Shown here piece after piece: positions 45,341 to 59,597 of a stretch of 64,000 bases of DNA (position 1 is its first letter; every line of letters begins with the position of its first letter). A program made the position numbers and the translations under genes. This DNA comes from a virus. The notes beneath the pieces were generated by a model that did no database searches, had not been told where the DNA came from, and was given only the letters and a program-made list of their open reading frames with translations. The stretch covers positions 20,304 through 84,303 of the IMG/VR virus record IMGVR_UViG_3300032046_000014. The stretch is one strand, 5' to 3'.

Positions 45341-45748
45341 CTATTCCTTTTTGAGATGTTGGCGTATCGATAGGGCATGCAAGAATTGTTCTAGGCAATC
45401 AATATGAAATCCGTTTGGTTCTAAAGAAGGCTTTTTCCCGTGTGATACTGCTGTCAAACCACAGAACAAGCATTCACGCTTATCCTTTTGGCTCTGGTCG
45501 TCTCGATAAAACATATCAAGCTTTGGAATCAAGGCGGCTTCCGGCAGATCCGGGAACTCTGCGCTCTCAAGAATAACCTGCAACACATTCGAAACCTGTC
45601 CGGACATGTACTGAACACGAACTACCCTCGCATCCACCGGTATATTCGTCTCAATCGACAGCCGCAATGGCAGCTCCTCTTCTGGAAGGTGGCCCTTAAG
45701 CACACCGCCCAACCATTCTACGCCCACTTCAACATACATCAACCTCAT
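45341..45748 (-). CDS. Hypothetical protein
   Basis: IPVDARVVRV, LESAEFP, C-terminal CxxC/HxxC. Confidence 0.55.
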   Translation of the reverse strand: MRLMYVEVGVEWLGGVLKGHLPEEELPLRLSIETNIPVDARVVRVQYMSGQVSNVLQVILESAEFPDLPEAALIPKLDMFYRDDQSQKDKRECLFCGLTAVSHGKKPSLEPNGFHIDCLEQFLHALSIRQHLKKE

Positions 45749-45754
45749 ATTTTC

Positions 45755-46336
45755 TCAGCTCCAATCGGACCGTATTTTCTGTTGTTGGATAAATTCTTTC
45801 CTGCCTTCTACACTACCGTTATATTGGACCCTTGCATAGTCGAGAAACATATGAAAAGCTTTGAGCACTTCATTTTCCAATACTTCAGAATCAAAGATTT
45901 TGGAAGGCGCTAATCTGTAGACGAACGTTTGAGTGTTTTCCTTCGACATTAAAGTGATGACCACGTCGTCTTGAAGGAGATATTTGCGCGCCCAAGACTC
46001 AAGCAATAATGCATTAGGAATCCTCCGCAGTCCCTTCAAGTCTGCTTCAGCAGCGGAGAAGCCAAGCCAGAAAGCTACATCCCTAAACTTGTTTCCCAAC
46101 ACAACATTCTCACTCATAGGCCGCTTCGCAAGATCCTCCACTGTTAACCTGTCAATATCAGCCGCAAGATAATACACAACCTTCCCCCAGCGCGCCAAAA
46201 AATTCTGCTGATCCGCAGTCAACACTTTCAACCATTCACGGTCAGAAATCGCCGGCCCTTCAGCTGGCCCCTTACAGAGATTCATCAACTGCCGAAGTTT
46301 TCTGCGAAGAATCTTGAAACAATCCTGGCCTATCAT
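45755..46336 (-). CDS. Hypothetical protein
   Basis: 193-aa ORF transcribed away from the first skew element. Confidence 0.55.
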   Translation of the reverse strand: MIGQDCFKILRRKLRQLMNLCKGPAEGPAISDREWLKVLTADQQNFLARWGKVVYYLAADIDRLTVEDLAKRPMSENVVLGNKFRDVAFWLGFSAAEADLKGLRRIPNALLLESWARKYLLQDDVVITLMSKENTQTFVYRLAPSKIFDSEVLENEVLKAFHMFLDYARVQYNGSVEGRKEFIQQQKIRSDWS

Positions 46337-46389
46337 ACGTCAGGTTCCTCAACACCGAAAACTCTTAAGATTCCACAGAATTATAAACT

Positions 46390-46945
46390 TTTCCCACAAC
46401 ACCAAAACTAAACAGCACAAACAACACAAACAGCACACACCACACATAAACACAATATCATAAAGTCACAAAAGACACAGAGCAGCAAAAATAGAAGAAG
46501 CAACAAAAGACCCTCCGGCACCGCGTCAACGCCGTACACAAAATACACGCCGTCCACAACATCAACACCGTACACAAAACTTGTTACCCACCCCATCACC
46601 TACTAACCGCCCCTTCACCCGCCTACCCATCCTACACCATCACCTACCAAACTCTCCAACACCACCCCAACAGTCCAAAAACAGAACCCACCAACCCACA
46701 AACACAATCCCCCCCACAACATAGCGGGTGGTTTAATTGTTTATTCAATTATTTGTCATTTTGGTTGGTTTGTTGGTTGGTTTGTTTTAGTGTTAACTGT
46801 TGGTTGGTTTTTCTGTTTGGTTCGGTGTTATGGTTGGTTCGGTTCGGGTCTCTTGTTTGGTCACTGCAGAAAATCGTTAGGCTTTTTCTGGAACGGTTTT
46901 CTGTGTATCGTTATGGTGAGTTTAATTGTTTATTATCCTTTTTTG
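46390..46945. other. AC-rich to GT-rich compositional switch element 1 (centre about 46722); candidate origin
   Basis: About 330 nt strongly depleted of G/T, then strongly G/T-rich; coincides with the gene-strand switch. Confidence 0.6.
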
Positions 46946-46959: not shown

Positions 46960-47022
46960 TCTTCCGTGTGTACCATAGTAGTGTAAAAGAAAAGCACAAC
47001 ACGGAAAAAAGGTGAGAAAAAA

Positions 47023-47118
47023 ATGACAGTAAAAAACTTCATCATTGGAACGCTTCTCATAAGCACAATGGCAGCGATAACCTACTATTTCACCTTTATG
47101 TATAGGTGGTTCGCATGA
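47023..47118 (+). CDS. 31-aa single-TM peptide
   Basis: AGGTGA RBS; MTVKNFIIGTLLISTMAAITYYFTFMYRWFA; ATGA overlap with the next gene. Confidence 0.55.
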   Translation: MTVKNFIIGTLLISTMAAITYYFTFMYRWFA

Positions 47119-47642
47119 ACAGCGATTACCTAAGCGTCAACAAGACAACTGGAAAACCACACTATACATACGGACAGAGCCAACAATGCCATGAACGGGA
47201 GCACGGACTGTTCTTTCATCCGAGAACGGGAGAAAAGATAGTTTGCCTAAGCGAAGCCAACATACGATATAAGACGATCTGGAAGCCAAAAGCGGAACGC
47301 ATGATCGTCAACGGTGACACGGTGATCAAGGTTCCAAGCACCGACAAGGTCAACGGCACAATACCGCAAACAGCTTATCACCGAATAGTAAACGCGATAA
47401 CGGAAACACCAGTCAAGGTATGTAAGACGGGAGACGGTCACACGTTCCTAGAGAATCCCGCAGCATGGCAGCTTAAAGCGGTCAACACTAAGAAGCACTT
47501 TTACGGAGAACGCAAGCATGGATACGCAAGCAAGGCAATAATCGAGGCACACCAACAACCAAGATGGAGACCGCCAGAAAAAGAAGCACCTCATAAGCTG
47601 AGGATAAGCAGCAGCGGTAAACTCAAGCTCTGCAGAATCTAA
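47115..47642 (+). CDS. Basic hypothetical protein
   Basis: ATG 47115 after a GGTGG RBS. Confidence 0.6.
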   Translation: MNSDYLSVNKTTGKPHYTYGQSQQCHEREHGLFFHPRTGEKIVCLSEANIRYKTIWKPKAERMIVNGDTVIKVPSTDKVNGTIPQTAYHRIVNAITETPVKVCKTGDGHTFLENPAAWQLKAVNTKKHFYGERKHGYASKAIIEAHQQPRWRPPEKEAPHKLRISSSGKLKLCRI

Positions 47643-47966
47643 GCGCAGAGTTGGCAAGCGGAACCTAAAAGGTTCATTCCGCAAGCCTCGAGCACTGGGA
47701 ACCTTTGAGAAGCCTAAGTTTCCCTTGGCGAGAAAATCCGCTGAGAAGCCATAGCTTTTCAATCCTAGTTATTCCCTTCGGAGAATAGCTACATACGCAA
47801 GCTCTTTGCGTACGACGGACTGACCCGTAGTGGAATGAAAGTCCGAATCCACGAAATTTTAGTAGTGGATCAAAAAGGGAGAAAATAATAAAGCCCAAGC
47901 CCATGGGCACACATCCAATTAATGACAAAGTTTTCATTAATCCGCAAAGCTCGACAACTTTGCGCT
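47642..47966 (+). ncRNA. Candidate large (325 nt) multi-hairpin ncRNA
   Basis: 12-bp closing helix AGCGCAGAGTTG/CAACTTTGCGCT, inner TCGAGC/GCTCGA, at least eight hairpins. Confidence 0.75.
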
Positions 47967-48043
47967 AAGGTGAAAACTTAAACAAAGATATTATACGATG
48001 AGGTCGCCAGTAGCGCGGCGACTGAGCTAAGCTCCTAACATTC

Positions 48044-48108
48044 TTTTTTCTATTCTCCCTAGCAAGGGATTGACAATGACCGTGAAACTCGGTCGAAAAT
48101 AGAAAAGG
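48044..48108 (+). ncRNA. Type III hammerhead ribozyme, U3-A8 variant; predicted cut after C48055
   Basis: Stem III TTTTCTAT/ATAGAAAA, UUC site, stem I TCCCT/AGGGA, core TTGACAA+T, stem II GACCG/CGGTC, GAAA. Confidence 0.8.
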
Positions 48109-48224
48109 ATGGTGATATAAAGAATGTTAAGCGGAAACCAAGCTCGAAAACTTCGCCTTAGAATACTCGGCGAAGACCAGTACAAGATCCTCATGCAACT
48201 GCATGGACGGAAGGTGAAGACGCA

Positions 48225-48467
48225 ATGAGAATACCAGTAGGCAATAGTTGTTCATGGCTTCCAGCTGAAGCGCTCGCAAAGATCACGAAGCTGCAGCTGT
48301 ACCGTGAAAGATGCATGAACTGGAACGTCAAAGCCTTCATGCCTAAGCAGGAAGCGGCGTTGGTAAGAGTTCCTATGACAGCGAAGCCACAGGAAACATT
48401 AGCGAGCCTGTTTGAACGATTGCAGATTCTCACAGACAAGATGGATGAAGGGCTGCAAAAATGTTGA
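48225..48467 (+). CDS. Hypothetical protein
   Basis: AGGTGA RBS. Confidence 0.55.
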   Translation: MRIPVGNSCSWLPAEALAKITKLQLYRERCMNWNVKAFMPKQEAALVRVPMTAKPQETLASLFERLQILTDKMDEGLQKC

Positions 48468-48868
48468 ATGCAAACCAAGAACTTGCTCGGAACATAGCGC
48501 ACTTACAGGAAGTCTACAATAGCGATTGCGCTTTCTGCAATCGGTACGGTGACTGCCACCCATGTCCCGACCCGGATCTCCTGCAGAAACGAGCCGACGA
48601 ATGGGCAGCAGAATATGTCCTCACCGACATCGTACCATTACTGTTGAAGCAAATCCAAGAGCTCCAGTTTAAAGCTGGCCTCACAGGCAAGACCAAGCTA
48701 GTGCATGTCACAGTGTACATGGATGAAGAAGGCAACATAGTTCTCGGCGGCTACGGATGGCAAGAATTCTACAACTATGAACAGGTTCAGACTCAACGCT
48801 GGCGAGATCTTGAAGCTGAACGGATAAGACGTGCAGTCGAACCCTTGCCAATGCTGGTCGGACCCTAA
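48461..48868 (+). CDS. Hypothetical protein with Cys cluster
   Basis: CAFC....C.PC. Confidence 0.6.
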   Translation: MLNANQELARNIAHLQEVYNSDCAFCNRYGDCHPCPDPDLLQKRADEWAAEYVLTDIVPLLLKQIQELQFKAGLTGKTKLVHVTVYMDEEGNIVLGGYGWQEFYNYEQVQTQRWRDLEAERIRRAVEPLPMLVGP

Positions 48869-48881
48869 CCCTTCCTTTTGT

Positions 48882-48954
48882 GGACCGTAAGTTGAGCAGC
48901 CTCCACGACGGCGCGGTCTGGAACAGGATTATTCACCTGTACTAAGTGCTCAGC
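48882..48954 (+). ncRNA. HDV-like self-cleaving ribozyme 1; predicted cut 5' of G48882
   Basis: P1 GGACCGT/GCGGTCT with G1.U; P2 GTTGAGCA/TGCTCAGC; P3 GCC/GGC; L3 TCCACGAC; P1.1 CC/GG; P4 ACAGG/CCTGT; J4/2 ACTAAG (catalytic C48942). Confidence 0.92.
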
Positions 48955-48987
48955 AGATTACCTGCAGGTGCAGGAGGTGAAACAAAG

Positions 48988-49821
48988 ATGATGAAAAAGC
49001 AAGTTGCGATACTTCTGGTTGCTGCATTGGCAACTGTACTTGTAGCTTCAGCCATAGTCAGCGCATGTGATCCTCCCAGATGTCCACCGGGTCCTCAAGG
49101 ACCAATTGGACCAGCAGGTCCTAAAGGTGACAAAGGAGATGTAGGAGCAACTGGCCCAACAGGACCTCAAGGTGCAACAGGAGCAACAGGACCAGAAGGT
49201 GCAATAGGACCAATGGGTTCTCAAGGACCCAGAGGAATAAGAGGACCGCAAGGTGAAACAGGATCTCAAGGGCTAACAGGACAGGCTGGAATCAACGGAA
49301 CCGATGGAGTTAACGGAACTGACGGAGTCAACGGAACAGATGGAACTGACGGAAAAGACGGTTCCACTTGGTATAATGGAAACGGCACAGCAACTTCAGA
49401 CTTAGGCAAGGATGGAGACTACTACCTACAAACAACAAACGGTGACATCCTCTACAAGATAGAAGGAACTTGGACTTTCCTGATGAACATCAAAGGCTCC
49501 GATGGAAGCAATGGACTCAACGGACTCGATGGACTCAACGGACAAGACGGCATCGATGGGAAAGACGGAATTGATGGTCTCAATGGAACAGATGGAGAGG
49601 ATGGTAAAGATGGACTTGACGGTCTTAACGGACAAGATGGACTCGATGGAGAAGATGGATTCAACGGACAAGACGGCAATGATGGAACAGACGGAATGTC
49701 TGCACAATCTTCAAGCGGATGCGATTGCAAACTATTGATTCTAATGCTCTTCCTGACCATGATAGCAATCTGGATAATCGCAATCAAAATGCTAAGGTGC
49801 AAGTGCAAGCAGCCCAACTAA
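48988..49821 (+). CDS. Collagen-like surface protein (signal peptide, Gly-X-Y repeats, C-terminal TM anchor)
   Basis: GGAGGTGA RBS; two Gly-X-Y blocks; several NGT sequons. Confidence 0.88.
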   Translation: MMKKQVAILLVAALATVLVASAIVSACDPPRCPPGPQGPIGPAGPKGDKGDVGATGPTGPQGATGATGPEGAIGPMGSQGPRGIRGPQGETGSQGLTGQAGINGTDGVNGTDGVNGTDGTDGKDGSTWYNGNGTATSDLGKDGDYYLQTTNGDILYKIEGTWTFLMNIKGSDGSNGLNGLDGLNGQDGIDGKDGIDGLNGTDGEDGKDGLDGLNGQDGLDGEDGFNGQDGNDGTDGMSAQSSSGCDCKLLILMLFLTMIAIWIIAIKMLRCKCKQPN

Positions 49822-49843
49822 AACCAACAGACTCTTTCTTTGT

Positions 49844-49901
49844 GAGTTGCAAGCTGAGACGCCTCCACGTGGCGCAACTTGGAATACGCGAAGAGCTCAG
49901 C
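49844..49901 (+). ncRNA. Minimal (P4-less) HDV-like ribozyme 2; predicted cut 5' of G49844
   Basis: P1 GAGTTGC/GCAACTT with G1.U; P2 GCTGAG/CTCAGC; P3 GCC/GGC; L3 TCCACGT; GG; J4/2 CGAA. Confidence 0.85.
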
Positions 49902-49928
49902 AAAACGATTGGAGTGTGAAAAAAGAAA

Positions 49929-50105
49929 ATGACTGTAGTATTCTTGGTGCAACGACTGGTCCACGGCAGATGGCAAAGCATCGGAGCTGTCTTCTGCAGG
50001 TACGACCGCAAGGCAGCACTACACCGCGCGCATGAAAACCCAATCATGCATGAACTACTGGCTGGCCACTGTGAAGACGTAGAGTTTTTGAGGTGGCTAC
50101 TGTGA
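49929..50105 (+). CDS. 58-aa hypothetical protein
   Basis: GGAGTGTGA RBS; manual translation MTVVFLVQRL... Confidence 0.5.
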   Translation: MTVVFLVQRLVHGRWQSIGAVFCRYDRKAALHRAHENPIMHELLAGHCEDVEFLRWLL

Positions 50106-50287
50106 AGACACTGAAGATCCCGACGCTTGTGAAGATCATGGGCGGCTGGGTTATGATCCAGCTCGGCAGCTTCCAATGGTGCAGCATAGGCGATCCACTC
50201 GGCGGAATCCTAGCCGTGACAGTCGGTCTCTCCCTGTTTCTTTGGGGACTATCAAACATAACCAACAATTGTGAGGTGATAGAATGA
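50093..50287 (+). CDS. Small membrane protein
   Basis: Two hydrophobic segments. Confidence 0.5.
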   Translation: MATVKTLKIPTLVKIMGGWVMIQLGSFQWCSIGDPLGGILAVTVGLSLFLWGLSNITNNCEVIE

Positions 50288-50640
50288 CAAGTATAACCGT
50301 AGAGGTTAAGGAAGAAGTCTGGCATGATCCCATCGAAGACGCGGAACTCGTGATACTGAGATTCAAGAATCCAGAAGAGCTAATGATGGCAGCGCATGAA
50401 GGCGTCACCGACATCGGCCTCTGGAAGAAGAAGGCCGGGATCGCGGTGCCGCTCCACGTGCAGAACCTCGTGGAATACCTGATGCAAAGACGCGAGATCA
50501 TAACTGCAAAAGCAGTCACAAATCTTCTCTGCCATTCACTGACAGTCCTACCGATCCTGGAAGGCATACAAGAAGCTCTCGACCTCGAATACTGTGAAGC
50601 GGAAGACAAGCTGCACCTGCAAGGAGGCGAACAAGTATGA
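50284..50640 (+). CDS. Hypothetical protein
   Basis: GAGGTGA RBS. Confidence 0.6.
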   Translation: MTSITVEVKEEVWHDPIEDAELVILRFKNPEELMMAAHEGVTDIGLWKKKAGIAVPLHVQNLVEYLMQRREIITAKAVTNLLCHSLTVLPILEGIQEALDLEYCEAEDKLHLQGGEQV

Positions 50641-50786
50641 AGCCGGAACTCACAGAACTCAGCCGCATAATCTGCAAACCCTGCAAAGCCTCGGACTACG
50701 AAGACTGCGCTCACTGCAGAATCCACGTACTCGTCAACAAGCTAGACTGCTGAGAGCAAGAAGCCGGCCGTTCAAAGGTCGGCAAT

Positions 50787-50847
50787 CCAAGCGTAATCGC
50801 TTGGCAGCAGGAAACCGCTGAGCCCAAATTGAAGGGCTGAAAAAGAG
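50787..50847 (+). ncRNA. Three-hairpin RNA motif, copy A
   Basis: Homologous to 57551..57611 with compensatory changes. Confidence 0.7.
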
Positions 50848-51007
50848 GCCAATGATCTTTTGGAGTGTGAAAGAAAGATGGAAAAGAAATCTACACGTTT
50901 GTGCGACCAGATACAAATGGTCAAGTCGTACACCATCAAAGAACCAGACGGCGGCAAAACAGTCGTCTATGTTAGTAGTCAACCGTGGAGAGAGAGGTGA
51001 GTGAAAG

Positions 51008-52675
51008 TTGACATGGCTAGATAAGTCAATCATAGAACGGCTCTGCCAAAGAAGCTGCGGCTTCATCTTCCAGACAGAAGACAAAGTGCGAATTGAACAG
51101 CTGATCAACTCGGCAAGACAATGCAACCTAAGCAAAGCCTTCAAGGCAAACTACGCAAGCATCCTCGAATACAATATCCTCCGCAGAGAACTTAAAGAAC
51201 TCAAGCCGACCAGCGAAACCATACTCGCGCCGGAACCTGGCAAGTCATACTTGCAGATCATAGACGAACGACTACACCAAACAGCCTCGCGTACAGACCA
51301 GCCGCAAGGCGCTCTCGTCATAATCCACTGGGTCCTAACCAAAGCCCACGCTGACAACATAGCGGACATGCTTGCCAGCTGGAGCCAAGACAAGACAATG
51401 TACAAGACCACGAGCACAGTATTCGTGTTCACGAGCGACGAAGGATTATTCAGCGAAACAGTCAGACGCCTATGCTACACAACTGAGATCGAGCCAGGCT
51501 CAGACGCAGAGTACCGGGACGTTCTCGATACACTTGCAGCTAAGATGAAGCCAGCCTTGAAGCTCAACGTCACAGAACAGTTTGTGCAAGCGCCAAGAGG
51601 ATTAACATTGCATCAGACGGAAACAGCAGCCTTGAAAGGAATCTACACGAACCCGGAAAGGCAGTTGTCACTGCCGCCGTTCACTGACCTCAAGATACAG
51701 ATACTGCGTTCAAGCGGCCTAGAATTCATAACGCCGAGCTTCGGCTATGAAGCAATAGGCGGCTTCGAAAGTATCAAGCAAGAATTCGCTGACTTCGTAG
51801 TGGCGCCATTGCAAGACCCGGCGAAAGCATTGTACTATGGCCTCGGCAGCCCAAGAGGAATCATCGAGTATGGACCTCCAGGCGTCGGCAAAACAGTGTT
51901 CGCCATAGCCACAGCCAAGGCGTTAGAACTGCCAATGGTAAAGCTTACACCTGCAGACCTGTACCGCAGCCTCGTAGGCGAATCAGAATCCCGAGTGAAA
52001 CACTTGACGGAACTCATTGAAAGCCTCTCGCCAATCGTAGTGTTCATAGACGAAGTAGACCAGCTGTTCATCGCAAGAAACCAAGTTATGATGACGGACT
52101 CAGGAGTCAACAGACGCATACTCAACGGCTTGCTTGACTGGCTAGGCCAACCAAGCAGACGAAGCTTCGTTATCGGAGCAACCAACTGCATAGAACAGAT
52201 GGACGAAGCAGCAACCCGGGCAGGAAGGTTCGACGAGATCCTCTTCATCCCGTACCCGAACCGCAAAGCCAGAGAAGACATCTTCAAGATACAATGCACT
52301 ATGACGCACAAGATACCGGTAGCCAAAGAACTCAGCTACAAAGAGCTCGCAGCAGAAAGCCAGTTGCTAAGCGGCGCAGAAATTGAGAAGTGGTGCATAC
52401 TCGCATCACGAGCAGCAATGCGTCACGGCGACAAATACGTCACTCAAGACCACTTCAAAGACACGGTAAGCCAGATAGTTATTGACCCGAAGAAACGCTG
52501 GGATGATCTGCAGGTGCAGGTGAAACGTCTTAGGACGATGAGCAACGTGAACGTACCCTTGTTGGAAGAGAGCCTGCAAGAATTCTATGATTCAGAGAAA
52601 GAAGTAGGCGATGAAAGAACAAGTAGTTTCCTGAAGATAATAGGTGAAAATGGAACGGAGGGAACAGCACTATGA
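51008..52675 (+). CDS. AAA+ ATPase (Ycf46-like: degenerate N-terminal and intact C-terminal AAA domain)
   Basis: GPPGVGKT, VFIDEVD, GATN, RAGRFD. Confidence 0.9.
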   Translation: MTWLDKSIIERLCQRSCGFIFQTEDKVRIEQLINSARQCNLSKAFKANYASILEYNILRRELKELKPTSETILAPEPGKSYLQIIDERLHQTASRTDQPQGALVIIHWVLTKAHADNIADMLASWSQDKTMYKTTSTVFVFTSDEGLFSETVRRLCYTTEIEPGSDAEYRDVLDTLAAKMKPALKLNVTEQFVQAPRGLTLHQTETAALKGIYTNPERQLSLPPFTDLKIQILRSSGLEFITPSFGYEAIGGFESIKQEFADFVVAPLQDPAKALYYGLGSPRGIIEYGPPGVGKTVFAIATAKALELPMVKLTPADLYRSLVGESESRVKHLTELIESLSPIVVFIDEVDQLFIARNQVMMTDSGVNRRILNGLLDWLGQPSRRSFVIGATNCIEQMDEAATRAGRFDEILFIPYPNRKAREDIFKIQCTMTHKIPVAKELSYKELAAESQLLSGAEIEKWCILASRAAMRHGDKYVTQDHFKDTVSQIVIDPKKRWDDLQVQVKRLRTMSNVNVPLLEESLQEFYDSEKEVGDERTSSFLKIIGENGTEGTAL

Positions 52676-53067
52676 GTCACACAACAGTCTACCTAACCAA
52701 ACTCGGCAACCTTAACCCGCAAATGCTCAAGGCAGCAGTTGAATACTTCGCCAAGATGCTTGGAGCCACCGTCTTCCATGGCACGATCCACAATGAATAC
52801 GATGACGAGACCAGACAGATAATCGTCGGATTCAAAACCGACGACCTGCCCCATGGCATAGGCTTCAACTTGGACCACGCCGGCAACCTCGTAATCGTCG
52901 GCGACCCATACGACCAAGCGGAAGCATACCAAAAATTCATTGACATGGCCACCAGCGGCCAGATCACCAACGCCTATCAGATCGCAATGAACGCGCAAGA
53001 GAACAATGAAACAGTAGATTCAAGAGTCGAAGGCGACAGCATCATAATGGAAGTGAACCCACAATGA
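52672..53067 (+). CDS. DUF1257/Ycf35-like protein
   Basis: MSH.T..T.L, IGF, GDPY, AY; follows the AAA gene. Confidence 0.6.
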   Translation: MSHTTVYLTKLGNLNPQMLKAAVEYFAKMLGATVFHGTIHNEYDDETRQIIVGFKTDDLPHGIGFNLDHAGNLVIVGDPYDQAEAYQKFIDMATSGQITNAYQIAMNAQENNETVDSRVEGDSIIMEVNPQ

Positions 53068-53246
53068 AAACCACAATAGTTCTCACGAAGGACGGAAAGA
53101 TCCATACGGACGCTGAAGGCTTCAACGGACCACAATGCATGATAGAGATCCAGAAGTTGCTCGCCGGTTTGGTCACGCAAGAAGTAGACACGAAACGGAA
53201 GAATGAGTATTATGCAAACGAAACAGAAGCTTCAACTGGTGCTTAG
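53064..53246 (+). CDS. DUF2997-like protein
   Basis: KDGKI..DAEGFNGPQC...K.EYY. Confidence 0.7.
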   Translation: MKTTIVLTKDGKIHTDAEGFNGPQCMIEIQKLLAGLVTQEVDTKRKNEYYANETEASTGA

Positions 53247-53381
53247 AAGCAACGCGATAGTTCCTGTTGGTTACATCGATGACCAAGAGGAACACCGCGT
53301 AGACGAGCTCCTAAAGAACATAGAAGTCACAGGCAAAACACAAGTGCCTTGTGGCTAAAACAGGTATGGAGTGTGAAAAGA

Positions 53382-54521
53382 ATGACAGATGAACAGCCTA
53401 AACTGCCAGACATAAACGTTCCAACATTGCCCTTGCCAGTCGACAGCAACCGTGTTGACCAGTTCCTAGCACACTTGCCACCGCCAGAACACACCGAATT
53501 CGAATTACTCTGTATGAAACGGCCAGTCATGCTGCAGGGCATACTGTTCGACATGCACTTCCACGGCGACGACCTCTTGAAAACGCAGGCGCCGGGACTC
53601 GGCGAAGACGTCTTCAACCAACTGAAGAATCATCTTGAAGACCAGATGATAGTCCTAGACCGCAAGTATGCACACAGAGAAACAAGCGGAGCCGCAAGCT
53701 GGGAAGCATACGGCAGCCGCAGCAAAGAACAGGAAGACGGCACTGACAGAACTCGCAGCATAAAAATCAGAGTGTTCCCGCGCAGCTTCTATAACAAGTT
53801 AGCCAGCTTCAAAGACCGCTTGGTCACAGAGCGACTGAGCAAATGCATAATGATTGAAAGCTACAAGAGCGGCAGATACAAGGAATGCATATACATTCTG
53901 CCCTATGAAAGCGCGCCCAGCATGGTAGCGCTCATAGAGGCGGTCAACCGGGAAATCGACATGTTCAACAAGGAAGTACAAGAGTACCTCGGCAGCCAAG
54001 ACTACCAGAACGTACGCGGAGTGCTTGAACGGTTCCACATGGAACATTTAGTAGACAAGAAATCCTTTATGATTCCGCATGTTGAGTACAGACTGATCCC
54101 GCTTGCATTGAATCCGAACGTAGTCATGGACATGGTTAAAACTAAGGAAGGCACATTGAACGAGAAACTGCAGCAAGAGTATGAATCAGGAAGACAACTG
54201 CTTCAAGAGAGCTTGGAACGTCAAAGCCAAGAGCTTGTTACAGCTGCATTAGCAAAGCTGAAGAAGGAAATCGACGCCAACGTGACACAAATAGTCATGA
54301 AGATGAAGACTGACCCTGACCGTGTGAAGGCTGACTTGGACAACATCAGACGAAAGGCAGACATGATCGGGCTTGAAGCATTAGCAGACAGCGTCATCAA
54401 CCCATTGAAACTGCTCATCGACACGCCAGACAGAGTCGAAGAACTATTCGGAGTCTCAGTGCTCGGCACGTTGCCTGAAGCAGTTGACGAAAGAATCAAA
54501 GCCCTGCTCAAAAGCCTCTAA
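53382..54521 (+). CDS. Helical hypothetical protein (possibly DUF3150-like)
   Basis: Context after the AAA/DUF1257/DUF2997 genes; YILP motif, coiled coil. Confidence 0.5.
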   Translation: MTDEQPKLPDINVPTLPLPVDSNRVDQFLAHLPPPEHTEFELLCMKRPVMLQGILFDMHFHGDDLLKTQAPGLGEDVFNQLKNHLEDQMIVLDRKYAHRETSGAASWEAYGSRSKEQEDGTDRTRSIKIRVFPRSFYNKLASFKDRLVTERLSKCIMIESYKSGRYKECIYILPYESAPSMVALIEAVNREIDMFNKEVQEYLGSQDYQNVRGVLERFHMEHLVDKKSFMIPHVEYRLIPLALNPNVVMDMVKTKEGTLNEKLQQEYESGRQLLQESLERQSQELVTAALAKLKKEIDANVTQIVMKMKTDPDRVKADLDNIRRKADMIGLEALADSVINPLKLLIDTPDRVEELFGVSVLGTLPEAVDERIKALLKSL

Positions 54522-54538
54522 CCTACAGGTGAAGCGAA

Positions 54539-54736
54539 GTGAACAAGAAACAGTTCAAGAAAGCGATTAGAAGCCTGCCTCTTGGAGCACAGCAGACAAT
54601 GGCAAGAGCGCTCTCAGGTGAAGAAAGTTACCTAGTGAGAGTATGCACTTGCGGTTGCAAGTACGTGAGCCGAGACTACGGCTTCCATTATGAGCCCTTG
54701 GAGAGATGCCAGAAACATCTGAGCAAAGGGAGGTGA
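54539..54736 (+). CDS. Small Cys-rich protein
   Basis: CTCGC...CQKH; CTACAGGTGA RBS. Confidence 0.55.
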   Translation: MNKKQFKKAIRSLPLGAQQTMARALSGEESYLVRVCTCGCKYVSRDYGFHYEPLERCQKHLSKGR

Positions 54737-54744
54737 GATAAAGA

Positions 54745-55143
54745 ATGTCAGCGCAACAGAGCTACTATGCAGAACAGTTCCACGTGAGAAGTGAGACGCG
54801 GAACAAATGCAACAGGTGTAGAAACAAGTTTCCCAACGCTCAAGACAGCTGCCCTAAATGCGGAAGTACCGACGTCGCTCCGCTCGAACACACCGTCAGT
54901 CTCAGACATGATGGCGGATGGGAATGCGGATGCGAAAGCTGGATCTTCGGACGCAAACGACATTCGTCAGGCTGGGGATGCAAACACATAGAAGAAGTCC
55001 GCGCAAGTTATGATGCTGCAGCTGTAGCCGCAAACCGTAGAGCAGGGCAACGCACCGTCATCCGAACCGCCGAGAGCACAATCGAACTCGCCGAAGACCC
55101 CGATGGTCGCATCAAAGGCTTCCTCGACAAACTCGACAAGTAG
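54745..55143 (+). CDS. SWIM zinc-finger protein with zinc ribbon
   Basis: CNRC/CPKC; CGC...CKH. Confidence 0.75.
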   Translation: MSAQQSYYAEQFHVRSETRNKCNRCRNKFPNAQDSCPKCGSTDVAPLEHTVSLRHDGGWECGCESWIFGRKRHSSGWGCKHIEEVRASYDAAAVAANRRAGQRTVIRTAESTIELAEDPDGRIKGFLDKLDK

Positions 55144-55251
55144 GCTTCCTGCAATTCCGAGGGACTGTATGCTGGTCGTTTCATCCTAGCAGAGTCTGCA
55201 GTGCCGCCAAAGTCGGTCTAGCGAGCCCTGATGACGAGCAGAGAGAAGCCT
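55143..55251 (+). ncRNA. Candidate intergenic structured RNA
   Basis: GGCTTC/GAAGCC and CTGC/GCAG closing stems; internal GACT/AGTC and TGCTGG/CTAGCA. Confidence 0.45.
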
Positions 55252-55379
55252 GCTTCCCAATTTCATACACCTGTATTTTCCTTCAGAATTCTTAAGCCCC
55301 ACACGCCTGTGGGGAGGCTGGACATCCTGCCACGGGAACGGTGGCGAAACAGCCAATAAATGGAGTGTGAAAAGAAAGC

Positions 55380-55574
55380 ATGAAAACTTTTGGAAAGAAG
55401 CCTGAGTCCTCCGCCCGCGCCCACGTCGTTGTCAGATGGTGGGAAGCTGGCAAGCTCAGGTACTTGACCGTTGGCACGGTGTATGCTGCACCTGCAGAAG
55501 TCGCCAAGTATCTTGAAGAGAAGCTTGCTGAACACTGGGGAAGCGGGGTGAACCACACCCCTACAGGTGCATGA
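55380..55574 (+). CDS. Hypothetical protein
   Basis: GGAGTGTGA RBS. Confidence 0.55.
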   Translation: MKTFGKKPESSARAHVVVRWWEAGKLRYLTVGTVYAAPAEVAKYLEEKLAEHWGSGVNHTPTGA

Positions 55575-55704
55575 CCTTGGCGACCCATTGTGACTGGTGC
55601 GGCAATGAGATTGAAGGAACTCCCATCAGAGCCTACGAAAAACGGGATGGCTGCTGCCTTGAACTTTCACGAAGCCCCATCAAAGGCGGCAAACCAATAG
55701 TCCT

Positions 55705-56046
55705 ATGCAGGAGGTGCGCAGAATGAAAAACCCGCAGCTTAAAATCTGGAACCTAAAAGCAGTTGAAACCGCACTGCGAAACAGAAGAAACAGCTCAACC
55801 GCCTACACCATAAGACAAGTGCTAGACCTCCTCTCCTCCAACTGGGACACCGCCATGACCCCTGAAGAGATACAGCTAAAGTTTGCTGAAGCACTCAACA
55901 ATGCAACAGACGAACTAGCCGAAGCACTCGCAGACTTCGACGCTTGCATTTCTCCAGACGAAGAAGCGTACGAGGCAATGCGAAGACACGTTGAAGAAGC
56001 ACAGAAGCATTTGCTGCCGCTCCTACAGGTGAAGAATCATGCCTGA
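55705..56046 (+). CDS. Hypothetical helical protein (true start probably 55723)
   Basis: GGAGGTG RBS. Confidence 0.55.
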   Translation: MQEVRRMKNPQLKIWNLKAVETALRNRRNSSTAYTIRQVLDLLSSNWDTAMTPEEIQLKFAEALNNATDELAEALADFDACISPDEEAYEAMRRHVEEAQKHLLPLLQVKNHA

Positions 56047-56167
56047 ACAATCCTGCCTAACCTGCAAACACAGGGGCGACTGTGAAGACACGGCTGAAAC
56101 GACAACCCACTGCATAGACTACGAACCTGACTACGAACCTGCAACAACAAACTACAGGTGAATCAGC

Positions 56168-56455
56168 ATGAGCGAAGAAGCCGTCAAGTTCAAGCCGCTT
56201 GAAGGCTACGTCTACTATCCTGAAGGCACACCTCGACAGGTAATCAGCGTTCTCCAACATGCCCGCGCCGAACACACGCGACTCCACCTCTGCTACGGCG
56301 ACCCAGCTACAGGTGAAGACTGGAACGAAATCTACGATTGCACGGGCATCATCGGCCGCACCACGGGCCCAGAGCCCATTCCCATCCTCCTCTACAACAA
56401 GCGCAGCCTCGGCGGAACAGCAGTCCTCACCAAAAACATCATCAAAATCACATGA
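56168..56455 (+). CDS. Conserved phage-type hypothetical protein
   Basis: YGDP.TG.DW.E...G.IGRTTG...IPILL...SLGG. Confidence 0.65.
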   Translation: MSEEAVKFKPLEGYVYYPEGTPRQVISVLQHARAEHTRLHLCYGDPATGEDWNEIYDCTGIIGRTTGPEPIPILLYNKRSLGGTAVLTKNIIKIT

Positions 56456-57250
56456 AACAAGGTACACCTACACTCGAACTCACAAAGAATCCCAAGGGGC
56501 ACATGGCAGGCCAACACACTCCACCTGCCAAGCCCCACAACCCAGAACAGTCGCCAACCATCCCTACCTACACCTGCACCAACAAACTCACCATCAAACA
56601 CTCACCATCCCTCACAACCACGCATGGGGTTTTGTGTTTAGTTTTTGTTGTTGTGTTGTGGTTGTGTTGGTTTTGTTGGTTGTTCTTGTAGGGGTTGTTC
56701 TTGTTGGGAAGGGTTGTGGTTTTGGTTGGTTGGTGTGTGTTGGTTTGTTTGTTGTTGTTTGTTTGGTGTTTTTCTTCTTGTTTGGGCGTAATGTTTATAG
56801 TTTTGTGTGTGGTGTTGTTCTTGTGGATGGTGTTTGATTGAAGCCGTTGATTTTTAGTGAGGAAGATTTTCGTCTTCGTCTTGTGGATGGGCATGAGGAG
56901 TATGATGTGTGTGAGGATAGGCGTATGTTGCATGTGGAGTTTTCTGGGGAGAAGAGTTTTTGGAAGATTGAGAAGGTTGTGGTGTTGGAGCAGAGCTTCA
57001 CGGTTATGCTTTCACGGGTGAAGAGGGAAGAGGAGAAGGGAAGGGATGGATAGTGCTCGTAGGCTTGAGTTGCTTTGTGTTGTTGTTGTTTGTTTGGAGC
57101 GTAGGTGTAGTCCGAATGTGGTTTTGGAGAGGCTGCTTGGGTTGCAGGTGAAGGGAGAAGAGCTTGTGGAGGTTGCCGCTGCGGCTTCGGCTTTGCTGTT
57201 TGACCAGTTGGAAGTGGAGTATGGTGGCAGGTGGGCGGCGGAGGCGCGGG
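56455..57250. other. AC-rich to GT-rich compositional switch element 2 (centre about 56622)
   Basis: Same architecture as element 1; GT bias decays through the downstream genes. Confidence 0.6.
56838..57053 (+). CDS. Hypothetical protein with GT-shifted codon usage
   Basis: Normal amino-acid composition; chained overlap with the next genes. Confidence 0.45.
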   Translation: MKPLIFSEEDFRLRLVDGHEEYDVCEDRRMLHVEFSGEKSFWKIEKVVVLEQSFTVMLSRVKREEEKGRDG

Positions 57251-57297
57251 AACGGGCAAGAGCGTTAGTTGCAGGTGTAGGAAGTGAACAGGGATGA
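57046..57297 (+). CDS. Hypothetical protein with GT-shifted codon usage
   Basis: Overlapping start/stop chain. Confidence 0.45.
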   Translation: MDSARRLELLCVVVVCLERRCSPNVVLERLLGLQVKGEELVEVAAAASALLFDQLEVEYGGRWAAEARERARALVAGVGSEQG

Positions 57298-57560
57298 TGC
57301 AGGATAGGCCAGTTGACGAGCGTTTGAAGGAGATGTTGGATAGGGTAGAAGCGGCGGCGAAGAGACTTAGAAAATGGAAGCGGAGAAACATTGTAAGGGG
57401 ATGGCATCCGACTAAAGAGAAGTGCAGCGAATGCAGCAGGCCGCTCCCGTACAACAATGATAGGAAACGAAGCCTTTGTAACCCGTGCAGCGCAAGAAGA
57501 CAAAGCCGCTTGAACAGGCAGAAGCACCTGCAACAAAAGGAGAGAGAAAACCAAGCGTAA
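57294..57560 (+). CDS. Basic zinc-finger protein
   Basis: CSEC...CNPC. Confidence 0.6.
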   Translation: MMQDRPVDERLKEMLDRVEAAAKRLRKWKRRNIVRGWHPTKEKCSECSRPLPYNNDRKRSLCNPCSARRQSRLNRQKHLQQKERENQA

Positions 57561-57611
57561 CTCGTTTGGCAGCAACGGAGCCGCTGGGCACAAGTGAGTG
57601 CCGAAAAAGAG
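57551..57611 (+). ncRNA. Three-hairpin RNA motif, copy B
   Basis: Homologous to 50787..50847. Confidence 0.7.
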
Positions 57612-57643
57612 CTCCCTCTAAAAATGTGAGGTGCAACGAAAAA

Positions 57644-58519
57644 ATGAAGTTAAGGTACGGCGAATTTGAAGCCGAAGTTTCAAAAGACCTTTTAGACGTG
57701 AACAAACTGGGTGATCAGCCAGTAATAATTGAACTGGTCAAAAACCACGCGGAAATCTGCAGCAAATGCCCACAGCACGTTGACTGCAAACAGTTTCCAT
57801 GGTGCAGCCAGATACAGGTGAAAGAGTGGCAAGTGCCCCTGTACCCTAACGGCGTAGCCCCTGATGAGCATGGCAAGCCTAAGACGGTGTGGCGTAAGGG
57901 CGACATCTGCACGTGCCACAGCAACGCGCGCGTAGTCATCGCAGACGGCAAACCACGTGAAGTGTTTGCTGAAGACGTGCAAGGCTACGAAGTCCTGCCC
58001 GACGGCAACGGCGGAGTACGCTTAGAAGTTAGGGTGCCCTTCATGGAAAGCACAAGCACACTGGACATCGGCGACTCTGACCTATATCCTGCAGGTGTAG
58101 CAACCAATTTTCTGCAGGAAAAGAACTATGAACTGTACGCGAAGCCCATCAAGAAACAGGCGGACAGCATCCGCAACGAACGCCGATTCTACGAGCTGGT
58201 TAAGAAGCTGTTCGAGAAGCATGTGGTCGTTGTGAAGACGGGGTTCGTGTTCAAAAGCGGAGTCTACGTCAGCTGGGCAGTAGTGCTGGAGCCAATCATC
58301 TTTGAGGACGGCAGCTATGACCTTCACATGTTCACCACCAAATGCAATTTGGTGTGGCAGCATCGACGGCCAGTTCCGCCCGAAGCAACTGCACCTGCAG
58401 AAGCATCAACAGTCAACAACCTGAAGGCGCTGAGCAGCTTCTTGGAACACGCTAAAACCGCGAAGGCCACCACGCCAATCGCGGCTTCTCCGCCACTCCA
58501 ACTCCAACAGAACCAGTAA
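57644..58519 (+). CDS. Divergent Ku-like DNA end-binding protein with Cys-rich insertion
   Basis: LRYGEFEAEV, EDVQGYE, EKNYELY, RFYELVKKL, GFVFKSG..AVVLEP, LHMFT parallel the prokaryotic Ku core. Confidence 0.55.
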   Translation: MKLRYGEFEAEVSKDLLDVNKLGDQPVIIELVKNHAEICSKCPQHVDCKQFPWCSQIQVKEWQVPLYPNGVAPDEHGKPKTVWRKGDICTCHSNARVVIADGKPREVFAEDVQGYEVLPDGNGGVRLEVRVPFMESTSTLDIGDSDLYPAGVATNFLQEKNYELYAKPIKKQADSIRNERRFYELVKKLFEKHVVVVKTGFVFKSGVYVSWAVVLEPIIFEDGSYDLHMFTTKCNLVWQHRRPVPPEATAPAEASTVNNLKALSSFLEHAKTAKATTPIAASPPLQLQQNQ

Positions 58520-58543
58520 CCCCAAGGCTACAGGTGAAAGAAG

Positions 58544-58765
58544 ATGGTGACTAAAGCAGTGAAGATAGTGACCGAATGGGTTGACGGCGGAGTAATCGCG
58601 GACGCACTTGCCGAGAACCTGAAGATACGCGGCGTACCCGCCTCCGTCAACAACATGAAAGGCTTATGGCTGGCCACCTTAGAAAGCCTACCCAGAATGT
58701 TCGACGATGTTCCCGACGAAAGAATCATCAGGGAAGCCCAGAAGCTACAGGTGAAGAAGCCATGA
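58544..58765 (+). CDS. Hypothetical protein
   Basis: CTACAGGTGA RBS. Confidence 0.55.
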   Translation: MVTKAVKIVTEWVDGGVIADALAENLKIRGVPASVNNMKGLWLATLESLPRMFDDVPDERIIREAQKLQVKKP

Positions 58766-59142
58766 TCATCTACGTTGTAACCCACGTCAGCGCAGGAATC
58801 CATCAGGGAATTCACGCCTTCAGCAAGAAGAAAGACGCAGACGCTTACGAGAAGTATCTCTGCCAACAAAACAGTGTACCCTATGAAGCCGCAGCCCGCG
58901 ACCAATACTACGAAGAGAACGAAGTTGACGACGATATTATCCAGTGGACAGTGGAAGTAGACCAGCTCCTACAGGACAGCATGCCCCACCTCAAAACCAA
59001 AGTAAAGAAGACTGGCACAACGATCGAGGTCATTGACTACGGCGAAAATTTTGTTCCCCGCTACTGGTCAAAACCAAACCGACAAGGAGTAAGCCATGGA
59101 TACCAGCCTGACAAGCTGGAACTACAGGTGAAGAACCCATGA
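58762..59142 (+). CDS. Hypothetical protein
   Basis: CTACAGGTGA RBS before ATG 58762. Confidence 0.55.
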   Translation: MIIYVVTHVSAGIHQGIHAFSKKKDADAYEKYLCQQNSVPYEAAARDQYYEENEVDDDIIQWTVEVDQLLQDSMPHLKTKVKKTGTTIEVIDYGENFVPRYWSKPNRQGVSHGYQPDKLELQVKNP

Positions 59143-59597
59143 CAACCGTTGAAGCTCTCATCAAACGGCTCCAAGAAGACTACAAGCCAACAACAATGTT
59201 GGCTGTGGCCATGTGGGGAATAGAGGATGTGCAAAGCCGCGCCAAAGAACGGCGCATCTACCTGTCGAAAGCAGCAGCCCAAAACATCATCGACTACATC
59301 GACAATGAGCAAGATGCGACACAGGGCATCAACTGGGACACGCTGGACTGTGCAACGGACAAGTATCTTGACGACCATCCACAGGTGCAGTACGTCTGCC
59401 CCGACTGCAGTTGGACAGTGAAAAGCAGAGCTCGCCGAATCAGGTGCAGCCATTGCGGCAGCCTCAACCTTGAACGCAAACTAGAGGACGGCAGACTCAT
59501 CAAGGCAGACGCGGACGAGAACACGCCTGAAGGACAGAAGCTCATTCATAAGGACGGAGAACCAACCTTTTGGCAGAAGGAAGGAAGTAAACAATGA
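59139..59597 (+). CDS. Hypothetical protein with zinc ribbon
   Basis: W.IEDV...GINWDT; CPDC/CSHC. Confidence 0.6.
   Translation: MTTVEALIKRLQEDYKPTTMLAVAMWGIEDVQSRAKERRIYLSKAAAQNIIDYIDNEQDATQGINWDTLDCATDKYLDDHPQVQYVCPDCSWTVKSRARRIRCSHCGSLNLERKLEDGRLIKADADENTPEGQKLIHKDGEPTFWQKEGSKQ

What the first reader, a model, noticed from the sequence alone, without database searches (positions are those of the whole stretch)
56455..57250. Second AC-to-GT switch inside an operon, overriding codon usage
Same polarity as the first element, and the centres share ATCCC(C/T)C..ACAAC followed by a G-run. Genes just downstream use G/T-ending codons while the rest of the operon is A/C-rich, fading over about 600 nt. 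This suggests a point-source, strand-specific mutational gradient (origin, nick or persistent ssDNA bubble) rather than selection on protein.
Basis: partly seen in the sequence, partly recalled or inferred. Interest (0 to 1): 0.7.

Follow-up and report, generated by a model that had tools for sequence, protein, structure and literature searches.

The report
AC-to-GT skew switch recoding neighbouring genes
In an uncultured, probably archaeal, tailed virus a 380-base non-coding element flips from almost only A/C to almost only G/T, and the G/T bias continues for about 800 bases into real genes, which are forced onto G/T-ending codons. A distant relative has the same element at the same place, so it looks like the footprint of DNA synthesis or repair that repeatedly starts there.

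Summary
E2 (56456-56837) is non-coding: an A/C arm with G+T 0.20, then a G/T arm with G+T 0.94-0.96, switching at about 56625.

Third-codon G+T is 0.85 in the next two genes, against a baseline of 0.36 (p=3e-37). It falls to baseline inside the third gene. A sigmoid with midpoint 680 nt fits better than a step (delta AIC 7).

The first skewed gene is real. It has 39-44% identical homologues that start with the same MKPL(I/L)F, and most of their shared threonines are replaced in the window's copy.

E1 (46725) mirrors the pattern leftward. A relative with 51% terminase identity has two syntenic switches 9.7 kb apart, and three more relatives have the E1 one. No reverse switch of similar strength exists.

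The arms drift at the neutral rate but keep their composition; only the centre is conserved. There is no hairpin, Rfam family, ORB/AT-rich origin or long duplicate. The motif shared by E1 and E2 is not beyond a composition-matched chance level.

Best reading (0.42): a conserved start site for outward DNA synthesis or unwinding, leaving a C-to-T and A-to-G footprint. It also marks a strain-variable junction at 56452.

It resembles GRINS, which are published but unexplained, but is single-copy. The scan already reported its partner E1.

The parts
56039..56455 (+). Two small genes upstream of E2 (56039-56161 and 56168-56455) with an extra A/C shift at third codon positions
   Evidence: Third-position G+T is 31/137 = 0.23 against a baseline of 0.358, p=0.0012. 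The bins nearest E2 read 0.07-0.2.
56452..56453 (.). Strain-variable junction at the left edge of E2, which creates the TGA stop of gene 56168-56455
   Evidence: Contigs of runs X2, X4 and X5 stop matching at 56451/56452. The block contig runs on for 113 nt as ACCACCAAAGGC..., in frame with the ORF. E2-bearing contigs have 74-85 unlike nt before 56451. Depth drops about two-fold here.
56456..56620 (.). A/C arm of E2, non-coding
   Evidence: G+T 0.20-0.30. A 6-nt TACACC insertion behind 56462 is present in all four runs. As single-stranded DNA it is weakly structured: -6.9 kcal per 100 nt against -10.8 +/- 2.8 for controls.
56607..56629 (.). Centre of E2 (ATCCCTCACAACCACGCATGGGG); the switch point is at about 56625
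   Evidence: Highest AC->GT switch score in the window, 61 of 80. The pattern matches only E1 and E2 but is not beyond a composition-matched chance level.
56626..56837 (.). G/T arm of E2: non-coding, degenerate (GTT)n/(TTGG)n-like
   Evidence: G+T 0.86-0.96. TRF finds low-grade 3-15 nt periodicities. Single-strand folding energy is 0.0 kcal. No Rfam family matches.
56790..56801 (+). TATA-like box AATGTTTATAGT about 40 nt before the first skewed gene (inferred promoter)
   Evidence: The same 12-mer lies before the first leftward gene in strain L003, and a 2-mismatch copy lies at 46380-46391 (-) before gene 45755-46336. Promoter function was not tested.
56838..57053 (+). 71-aa gene recoded to G/T-ending codons
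   Evidence: G+T by codon position is 0.61/0.56/0.90. A+C counts by position are 28/32/7, chi-square p=0.0003. Homologues P0019 (44%) and P0021 (39%) align over the full length from the same MKPL(I/L)F start, and most of their shared Thr residues are replaced here.
57046..57297 (+). 83-aa ORF, also G/T-recoded; no homologue found
   Evidence: G+T by codon position is 0.70/0.61/0.81. Only its own cluster was found, in 5 contigs. Periodicity is weaker (p=0.053), so coding is probable but not proven.
57294..57560 (+). 88-aa zinc-ribbon-like gene inside which the skew decays to baseline
   Evidence: Third-position G+T is 0.77 in the first 30 codons (p=8e-6) and 0.42 in the rest (not significant).
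46340..46930 (.). Partner element E1 (A/C arm, centre at about 46725, G/T arm) at the divergence point of the genome
   Evidence: Switch score 59 of 80. The centre, from -60 to +40, differs only about 5-7% between W and L003, while the arm differs 28%.
45341..46336 (-). Two leftward genes next to E1 with mirror-image G/T recoding on their coding strand
   Evidence: Coding-strand third-position G+T falls from 0.8-0.93 to 0.36 in gene 45755-46336, then again from 0.67-0.87 to 0.33 in gene 45341-45748. L003 lacks the first gene, and there the second gene's homologue abuts E1 and shows the gradient.

Best explanation
E2 is one of a conserved pair of non-coding, DNA-level cis elements of this virus family.

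Proposed mechanism: at its centre, DNA synthesis or unwinding repeatedly starts and runs outward in both directions. This could be origin firing, a D-loop or R-loop, or recombination/repair synthesis from a nick or break. On each side, the strand that runs 5'->3' away from the centre accumulates C->T and A->G changes. That would happen either because this strand is the displaced, long-lived single strand, which favours deamination of C and A, or because it is the nascent strand laid down by a low-fidelity enzyme that favours G.T mispairs.

Consequences: neutral sites saturate at about 95% G+T. The arms therefore become A/C-only on the left and G/T-only on the right. Where the affected tract is long, as to the right of E2, the pressure overrides codon choice and partly the amino-acid content of real genes.

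Shown: the skew, its polarity, the gradient, the reality of one recoded gene, conservation of position, and neutral drift of the arm sequence with conserved composition.

Inferred: that DNA synthesis or single-stranded DNA occurs there, and the mutational chemistry.
For: 1. Only the origin-type polarity occurs. There are 7 AC->GT switches (score 45-63 of 80) in W, L003, G001, L004 and L006, and no GT->AC switch beyond -33.
2. Position is conserved.
3. There is no drop at the non-coding/coding border. The arm has G+T 0.86-0.96 and the first 45 codons have third-position G+T 0.93-1.0. The decay is sigmoid and ends inside a gene.
4. All codon positions and the amino-acid content shift. Amino acids with G/T-only codons make up 40.7% against 28.1%; those with A/C-only codons 11.2% against 29.0%; Thr 0.7% against 5.8%. 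Thr residues shared by both homologues are mostly replaced in W.
5. Both transitions are involved: T/(T+C)=0.92 and G/(G+A)=0.82 at third positions, against 0.27 and 0.44.
6. The arm sequence drifts at the neutral rate (28% against 23.5%) yet stays G/T-rich in both strains, while the centre is conserved.
7. The same gradient appears leftward from E1 in W and in L003.
8. The skew spans DNA both upstream and downstream of the inferred promoters, so it is not confined to one transcript.
Against: - No replication initiator, primase or polymerase was recognised near either element.
- There is no AT-rich unwinding region or ORB-type repeats.
- The long coding gradient is absent in G001 and L006, where the arms are 100-250 nt.
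- E1-left shows two successive waves rather than one monotonic decline.
- The strong gradients all lie downstream of one type of TATA-like box, which also fits a transcription-linked cause.
- No polymorphism data were available to read the mutation spectrum: the E2 contigs differ by only 1-4 bases.
- No RNA or replication data exist.
Confidence: 0.42

Rival explanations
1. GRINS-like recombination linker. The arms are selected, or kept by biased gene conversion, as structure-free, low-complexity and recombination-prone DNA that marks module borders. The skew spreads into neighbouring genes through conversion tracts. Replication need not start there.
For: - Skews meet the GRINS thresholds and are strongest at third positions: mean |GC| 0.51, mean |TA| 0.36, r=0.77, against 0.09, 0.27 and r=0.02 elsewhere (definition in PMC8256042).
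- Contigs break, and depth changes about two-fold, exactly at the E1 centre and the E2 left edge.
- A run X4 contig joins an L003-like left flank to a W-like block.
- The genes flanking both elements are strain-specific.
- The arms are unstructured as single strands.
Against: - No duplicate of more than 500 bp at more than 80% identity exists.
- E1 and E2 share no more than chance allows.
- A conversion donor with G/T-only codons is not known.
- The fixed polarity is not predicted: GRINS show both signs.
- The mechanism of GRINS itself is unknown, so this reading names a class rather than a cause.
Confidence: 0.25
2. Transcription-linked asymmetry. A strong promoter (AATGTTTATAGT) at the outer end of the G/T arm drives heavy transcription. 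R-loops or pausing then expose the non-template strand of the first 400-800 nt, which deaminates.
For: - The strong coding gradients (E2-right, E1-left in W, E1-left in L003) each start about 40-60 nt after this box.
- The non-template strand there is G-rich and C-poor (G 0.42-0.52, C 0.10 or less), the composition known to favour R-loops (own knowledge).
- The early promoter to the right of E1 has a different box and no gradient behind it.
Against: - The purest G/T and A/C DNA lies between the centre and the boxes, upstream of those promoters.
- The upstream + strand operon reads into E2's A/C arm with the opposite skew.
- Genome-wide, coding strands are A/C-rich at third positions (0.36), the opposite of a general transcription effect.
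- Promoters and transcript starts are untested, and no RNA run was listed.
Confidence: 0.17
3. Imported cassette. E2 and the two or three following genes were acquired from a donor with unusual composition, so the skew is inherited rather than made in place.
For: - The left border at 56452 is abrupt and strain-variable.
- The 71-aa and 83-aa genes have no counterpart in G001.
- A step model at 57252 is only 7 AIC units worse than the sigmoid.
Against: - An E2 element is already present at the same place in G001.
- The composition decays gradually inside a gene.
- No genome with 90% G/T third positions is known as a donor (own knowledge).
- The same gradient occurs next to E1 in two strains.
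Confidence: 0.08
4. Terminal-repeat boundary. The 9.8-kb block between E1 and E2 is a long direct terminal repeat or a second copy, and the elements are where ends are cut and the repeat is duplicated by nick-primed synthesis.
For: - The block is at about 2x the depth of both flanks in X2, X4 and X5, although the left-flank variants differ between runs.
- The block holds what the earlier scan reports on this genome call its early genes.
- Spacing is conserved at 9.7-9.9 kb.
Against: - Unlike sequence follows 56452 and precedes 56451 in the contigs, which a plain terminal repeat would not give.
- The samples may come from one campaign, so the constant ratio is weak evidence.
- Repeat duplication predicts inward synthesis only, and so does not explain the outer arms.
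Confidence: 0.07

Closest known systems
[quoted passage not shown] 2021, PMC8256042)
   Same: - Intense, positively correlated GC and TA skews.
- Abrupt sign change within 1 kb.
- Strongest at third codon positions, with a shift toward Gly/Val/Cys/Trp and away from Pro/Thr/His/Gln.
- Linked to recombination borders.
- Cause unknown.
   Different: - Single copy, with no duplicate of more than 500 bp at more than 80% identity.
- The core is non-coding.
- One fixed polarity around a conserved centre.
- Conserved syntenic position in a virus family, probably archaeal, rather than in bacterial PKS genes.
Strand asymmetry of vertebrate mitochondrial DNA around the control region / D-loop (own knowledge)
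   Same: - C->T and A->G bias on the strand that stays single-stranded.
- Strength graded with exposure.
- Strong enough to dominate synonymous sites and amino-acid content.
   Different: - There the effect is genome-wide and tied to a mapped origin.
- Here it is confined to about 0.2-0.8 kb on each side of a point, and no replication data exist.
GC/keto-skew switch at bacterial and archaeal chromosomal origins; archaeal oriC with ORB boxes (PMC4010727)
   Same: Same polarity: A/C-rich to G/T-rich on the top strand.
   Different: - About ten times stronger and strictly local.
- No AT-rich unwinding element.
- No ORB repeats.
- No adjacent initiator gene.
GC skew and R-loops downstream of CpG-island promoters, and R-loop-primed origins of phage T4 that are also recombination hot spots (own knowledge)
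   Same: - A G-rich non-template strand for several hundred bases after a promoter.
- The skew flips at a bidirectional centre.
- Start sites and recombination hot spots coincide.
   Different: - The purest skew lies upstream of the inferred promoters.
- T is enriched as much as G.
- Nothing here was measured at the RNA level.

Membership tests
GRINS | Region longer than 500 bp with mean absolute GC and TA skew above 0.15 (150-nt windows, step 30) | tested here: met
   Over 56170-57450 (1.28 kb), mean |GC| is 0.51 and mean |TA| is 0.36. For E1 (45900-46930) the values are 0.42 and 0.32.
GRINS | GC and TA skews correlated, unlike the surrounding DNA | tested here: met
   Pearson r is 0.77 (E2) and 0.87 (E1), against 0.02 and 0.10 in the rest of the operon.
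GRINS | Duplicated: more than 80% identity to another region of the same locus | tested here: not met
   E1 and E2 share only words of 12 nt or less, as expected from composition (P=0.32). The own-genome search found only a 34-nt, 83% match.
GRINS | Skew strongest at third codon positions, with a matching amino-acid shift | tested here: met
   G+T by codon position is 0.61/0.56/0.90 and 0.70/0.61/0.81. Amino acids with G/T-only codons are 40.7% against 28.1%.
Archaeal oriC-type origin | AT-rich unwinding element | tested here: not met
   The centre window 56600-56649 has G+C 0.44, against 0.49 for 56001-57000. There is no AT-rich tract between the arms.
Archaeal oriC-type origin | Repeated ORB or mini-ORB boxes in inverted orientation around the unwinding element | tested here: not met
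   Inverted repeats are only 70-84% complementary, as expected for an A/C arm set against a G/T arm. There is no excess pairing across the centre (z -0.2 to -1.35).
Archaeal oriC-type origin | Adjacent initiator gene (Orc1/Cdc6 or Rep) | tested here: inconclusive
   Pfam and PHROGs name no initiator among 35 flanking and distal proteins (30 scanned with Pfam, 10 with PHROGs, 5 of them with both). Many have no family at all, and the record is about 78% complete.
Replication origin in general | Leading-strand (G/T) skew pointing away from the site on both sides | tested here: met
   All 7 switches in 5 records are AC->GT.
Replication origin in general | DNA synthesis actually initiates there | not testable with these tools
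   Only assembled contigs of metagenomes were available, and their depth is one figure per contig.
Hairpin, cruciform or telomere-resolution site | The two arms pair with each other beyond what composition allows | tested here: not met
   DNA folding against arm-preserving shuffles gives z -0.25 (60-nt arms) and -2.2 (150-nt arms) for E2. The other six elements range from +0.7 to -3.6.
Known structured RNA | Match to an Rfam family | tested here: not met
   No match with E up to 1 in 56000-58000 on either strand.

The most novel reading that the evidence does not exclude
E1 and E2 are site-anchored, strand-asymmetric mutator zones. A conserved centre recruits a start of DNA synthesis (origin, D-loop or repair) whose outward strand is driven to G/T. 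This may be self-reinforcing, because a G-rich, unstructured displaced strand stabilises the open state. The process rewrites codons and proteins of whatever gene lies beside it. If so, this small virus family shows, with a defined centre and polarity, the still unknown cause of GRINS-type skew, which the scan has also noted in other archaea and archaeal viruses.
Probability: 0.3. Interest if true: 0.8.

Novelty: new variant of a known kind. Interest (0 to 1): 0.64.

Why it matters
Local composition pressure strong enough to push real genes to about 90% G/T-ending codons, and to strip threonine from a conserved protein, is rare. Its only published counterpart, GRINS, has no known mechanism.

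Here the phenomenon comes in a compact form:
- a point centre;
- one polarity;
- a measurable decay length of about 680 nt;
- two copies per genome at conserved positions;
- strain variants that differ in which gene sits next to the centre.

That makes the cause testable, by asking whether replication starts, R-loops, repair synthesis or strand exposure occur at a defined site. It also links extreme skew to exchange of gene modules between virus strains.

For annotation, G/T-only and A/C-only tracts are stop-free in the sense direction and generate spurious long ORFs, for example 56259-56837.

Tried and rejected
Searches for related DNA that found nothing:
- Relatives of four flanking proteins in IMG/VR.
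- The 291-aa protein in metagenome contigs.
- The alternative junction 30-mer in viral and metagenome contigs.
- The shared G/T-arm motif in IMG/VR.
- The 71-aa family in IMG/VR.
- The terminase profile and a centre motif in GTDB genomes.
- Megablast against cultured phages.

Consequences and limits:
The test of orthologues lacking the element was therefore done at the protein level only.
- No RNA holder was listed among the sequencing runs.
- Cultured relatives have only about 25% identical terminases. Comparing annotated genes at the two ends of the phage BRock record showed no long terminal repeat (the end sequences were not aligned), so nothing could be inferred about the type of genome ends.

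Readings rejected:
- Hairpin or cruciform.
- Known RNA family.
- Iterons marked by the residual C and A bases: their contexts match the background.
- Excised circle or rearrangement: the loose-end sequences are absent from the genome and its relatives.
- Canonical G-quadruplex runs, judged by eye only.
- Assembly artefact.

Other dead ends:
- Literature searches for AC/GT switch elements in archaeal viruses found nothing.
- My first codon count for the 291-aa gene was out of frame. It was corrected to start at 57644.

Full report
**Context**

The window is bases 20304-84303 of an 84.3-kb IMG/VR virus record, linear and about 78% complete. It encodes a portal, an SU10-type capsid protein, a prohead protease and a terminase on the - strand. 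It also carries a long + strand operon of small genes, an ATP-dependent ligase and a C5 methylase. Earlier notes of this scan call the virus probably archaeal; I did not test the host. No cultured relative is closer than 25% in the terminase.

**The observation**

The whole record has just two places where 100-nt windows pass 80% A+C or 80% G+T. These are E1 around 46725 and E2 around 56625, and both run from A/C to G/T.

E2 fills the gap between the stop of gene 56168-56455 and the TTG start of gene 56838-57053. Its left arm (56456-56620) has G+T 0.20-0.30 and its right arm (56626-56837) 0.86-0.96.

The bias does not stop at the gene start. Third-codon G+T is 0.90 and 0.81 in the next two ORFs, against 0.358 in 16 other + strand genes (133/156, p=3e-37). 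Almost every amino acid changes to its G/T-ending codon.

In 15-codon bins the value stays at 0.93-1.0 to 57113 and falls to 0.8-0.87 and then 0.67. Inside the third gene it runs 0.87, 0.67, 0.53, 0.40, 0.33. A logistic curve (midpoint 679 nt from the centre, width 94 nt) fits better than a step (AIC 1036.3 against 1043.4) or an exponential (1047.6). The dips at gene ends coincide with the purine-rich ribosome-binding sites of the next gene.

Upstream, the last 137 codons before E2 are shifted the other way (0.23, p=0.001).

**Are the skewed ORFs genes?**

G/T-only DNA has no stop codons, so open frames there mean little. ORF 56259-56837, which spans both arms, is surely spurious.

In 56838-57053, however, the remaining A and C sit at codon positions 1 and 2 (28/32/7, p=0.0003). 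A full-library HMMER search found two 73-74-aa proteins, 44% and 39% identical. They align end to end and begin with the same MKPL(I/L)F. This also confirms the TTG start.

Those homologues are rich in Lys, Glu and Thr. Of the threonines shared by both homologues, all but one (T58 of the window's protein) are Arg, Asp, Met or Leu in the window's copy. Overall the two skewed ORFs hold 0.7% Thr against 5.8% elsewhere, and 40.7% against 28.1% amino acids with G/T-only codons. The pressure therefore acts on a real, older protein and reaches the protein level.

The 83-aa ORF has no homologue and weaker periodicity, so it is probably a gene but this is unproven.

**Not an artefact, but a junction**

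Six sediment metagenome runs hold the stretch. Laid contigs of four of them carry 56451-59500 with 1-4 differences, plus a TACACC insertion behind 56462.

In X2, X4 and X5 the contigs stop matching at 56451/56452. The contig that carries the block 47066-56452 (2 differences in 9.4 kb) continues for 113 nt as ACCACCAAAGGC..., in frame with the upstream ORF. The E2 contigs have 74-85 unlike bases in front. On the left, pieces end at 46696/46716, which is the E1 centre.

Depth of the block is about twice that of both flanks in three runs: 38.5 against 19.0 and 18.5; 23.8 against 11; 20.6 against 10.8 and 11.9. So the elements border a unit that is either shared by different genomes or present twice per genome. 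I could not tell which, and none of the listed pieces bridges the window's own junction.

**Relatives**

Single-protein searches found nothing. A profile of 15 terminases found five IMG/VR contigs. I fetched one 84-kb record whole (G001, terminase 51% identical).

G001 has exactly two AC->GT switches, at 20922 and 30635. They are 9.7 kb apart, against 9.9 kb in W, and lie in the same gene order. L006 (46%), L004 (52%) and L003 (99%) each have the E1 switch within a few kb of the terminase. No record has a reverse switch of comparable strength.

In G001, L006 and L004 the arms are 100-250 nt and non-coding, and the neighbouring genes are not recoded.

L003 lacks gene 45755-46336 and 225 nt of the A/C arm. 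There the next gene abuts E1 and shows the gradient (0.8-0.87 down to 0.2-0.5). In W both leftward genes show a wave, so the second wave may be a relic of a former position next to the centre.

Between W and L003 the G/T arm of E1 differs at 28 of 100 sites. That is about the neutral rate (23.5% at third codon positions), yet both copies stay G/T-rich. The centre, from -60 to +40, differs only about 5-7%.

In G001, L004 and L006 the centres share G(G/C)CACT followed by GTTTGGGG/TGTGTG.

**What it is not**

- The arms do not pair beyond what composition allows.
- No Rfam family matches.
- There is no AT-rich unwinding region, no ORB-type repeats and no recognisable initiator nearby (PMC4010727 for the definition).
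- The residual C and A bases in the arms have ordinary contexts, so there are no iterons.
- The motifs shared by E1 and E2 are unique in the window but not beyond composition-matched chance.
- Taken alone, each arm is almost free of single-strand structure (0.0 to -6.9 kcal per 100 nt against -10.8 for controls). This follows directly from the composition.

**Mechanism**

The facts to explain are these:
- one polarity;
- a conserved centre and position;
- arms that drift neutrally but keep their composition;
- continuity from non-coding DNA into synonymous sites;
- both C->T-type and A->G-type bias;
- a sigmoid end inside a gene;
- coincidence with recombination borders.

The reading that covers most of them is a site where DNA synthesis or unwinding repeatedly starts outward. 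The outward 5'->3' strand would be either the displaced single strand, where C and A deaminate, as proposed for the mitochondrial heavy strand. Or it would be the nascent strand made by a low-fidelity enzyme that favours G.T mispairs, an idea raised for GRINS. Both give G/T enrichment with the observed polarity. A distribution of tract lengths gives the plateau and the sigmoid.

Resection at a break in the centre would expose the opposite strands and predicts the reverse polarity. Repair synthesis primed from such a break predicts the observed one.

A transcription-linked cause remains possible. The strong coding gradients all start just after the box AATGTTTATAGT or a near copy of it. However, the purest arms lie upstream of those boxes, and the virus's coding strands are otherwise A/C-rich. 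An imported cassette is unlikely, given the conserved position and the gradual end. All steps about DNA synthesis, strand exposure and promoters are inference.

**Comparison and novelty**

The skew meets the quantitative GRINS criteria: length, |GC| 0.51, |TA| 0.36, r=0.77, and a third-position maximum. It fails the defining duplication. It differs in having a non-coding core, a centre, a single polarity and a conserved place in a virus genome.

I therefore file it as a new variant of a known but unexplained kind, not as a member. The scan reported the partner E1 before and reached a similar reading. It also holds unchecked notes of same-direction flips in an Asgard archaeon and a halovirus.

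Noticed in passing
window 46716-56452: The 9.8-kb block between the E1 centre and the E2 left edge has about twice the contig depth of both flanks in runs X2, X4 and X5, although the left-flank variants differ between runs. This could mean a long terminal repeat, a second copy, or a block shared by several strains.
   Followed up: partly
window 56462: A 6-nt insertion (TACACC, one more unit of a short repeat in the A/C arm) is present in all four laid runs but not in the window. The arms change length by slippage.
   Followed up: no
window 56020-57300 and L010 10130-11510: Most gene starts read in these two stretches are preceded by the extended motif (T)ACAGGTGAA about 6 nt before the start codon, in this virus and in the distant relative G001. 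This is an unusually long and uniform ribosome-binding signal.
   Followed up: no
L010 10430-10525 (G001 30430-30525): Three tandem copies of a unit of about 44 nt (CATCAATTCAGCCTTAGTAAGCCTTACCATACAG) lie just before the A/C arm of the relative's E2.
   Followed up: no
L006 5974-6501 (-): A 175-aa gene beside the relative's E1 has third-position G+T of only 0.07-0.13 over about 90 codons, an extreme A/C recoding. On the + strand the pattern is therefore G/T, then A/C, then G/T, and the skew can alternate as in GRINS.
   Followed up: partly
L006 7000-7050: A G/C-rich dyad (GGGGCCCCCCCGAGGCGCCTGCAGCTGCAG ... GGGGTACCCCCCCC) closes the G/T arm of that relative's element.
   Followed up: no
window 56259-56837 and 56568-56933: Long ORFs (192 and 121 aa) run through the stop-free A/C and G/T arms. 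They are by-products of the composition and would be false gene calls.
   Followed up: yes
protein P0020 (1922 aa): A 1922-aa protein in the representative library matches the 71-aa protein in five separate stretches, so the small protein is also a repeated domain of a giant protein elsewhere.
   Followed up: no
protein cluster of P0018: A 478-aa amidophosphoribosyltransferase-like protein (P0022) is listed in the same 90% cluster as the 56-aa fragment of the 71-aa protein. This looks like a clustering error.
   Followed up: no
window 46731-46745 and 46920-46934: An exact 15-nt repeat GTTTAATTGTTTATT occurs twice in E1's right arm, 189 nt apart. G001 has TTTTTGTTTATTGG twice in the same arm. 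These may be early promoters or binding sites.
   Followed up: no
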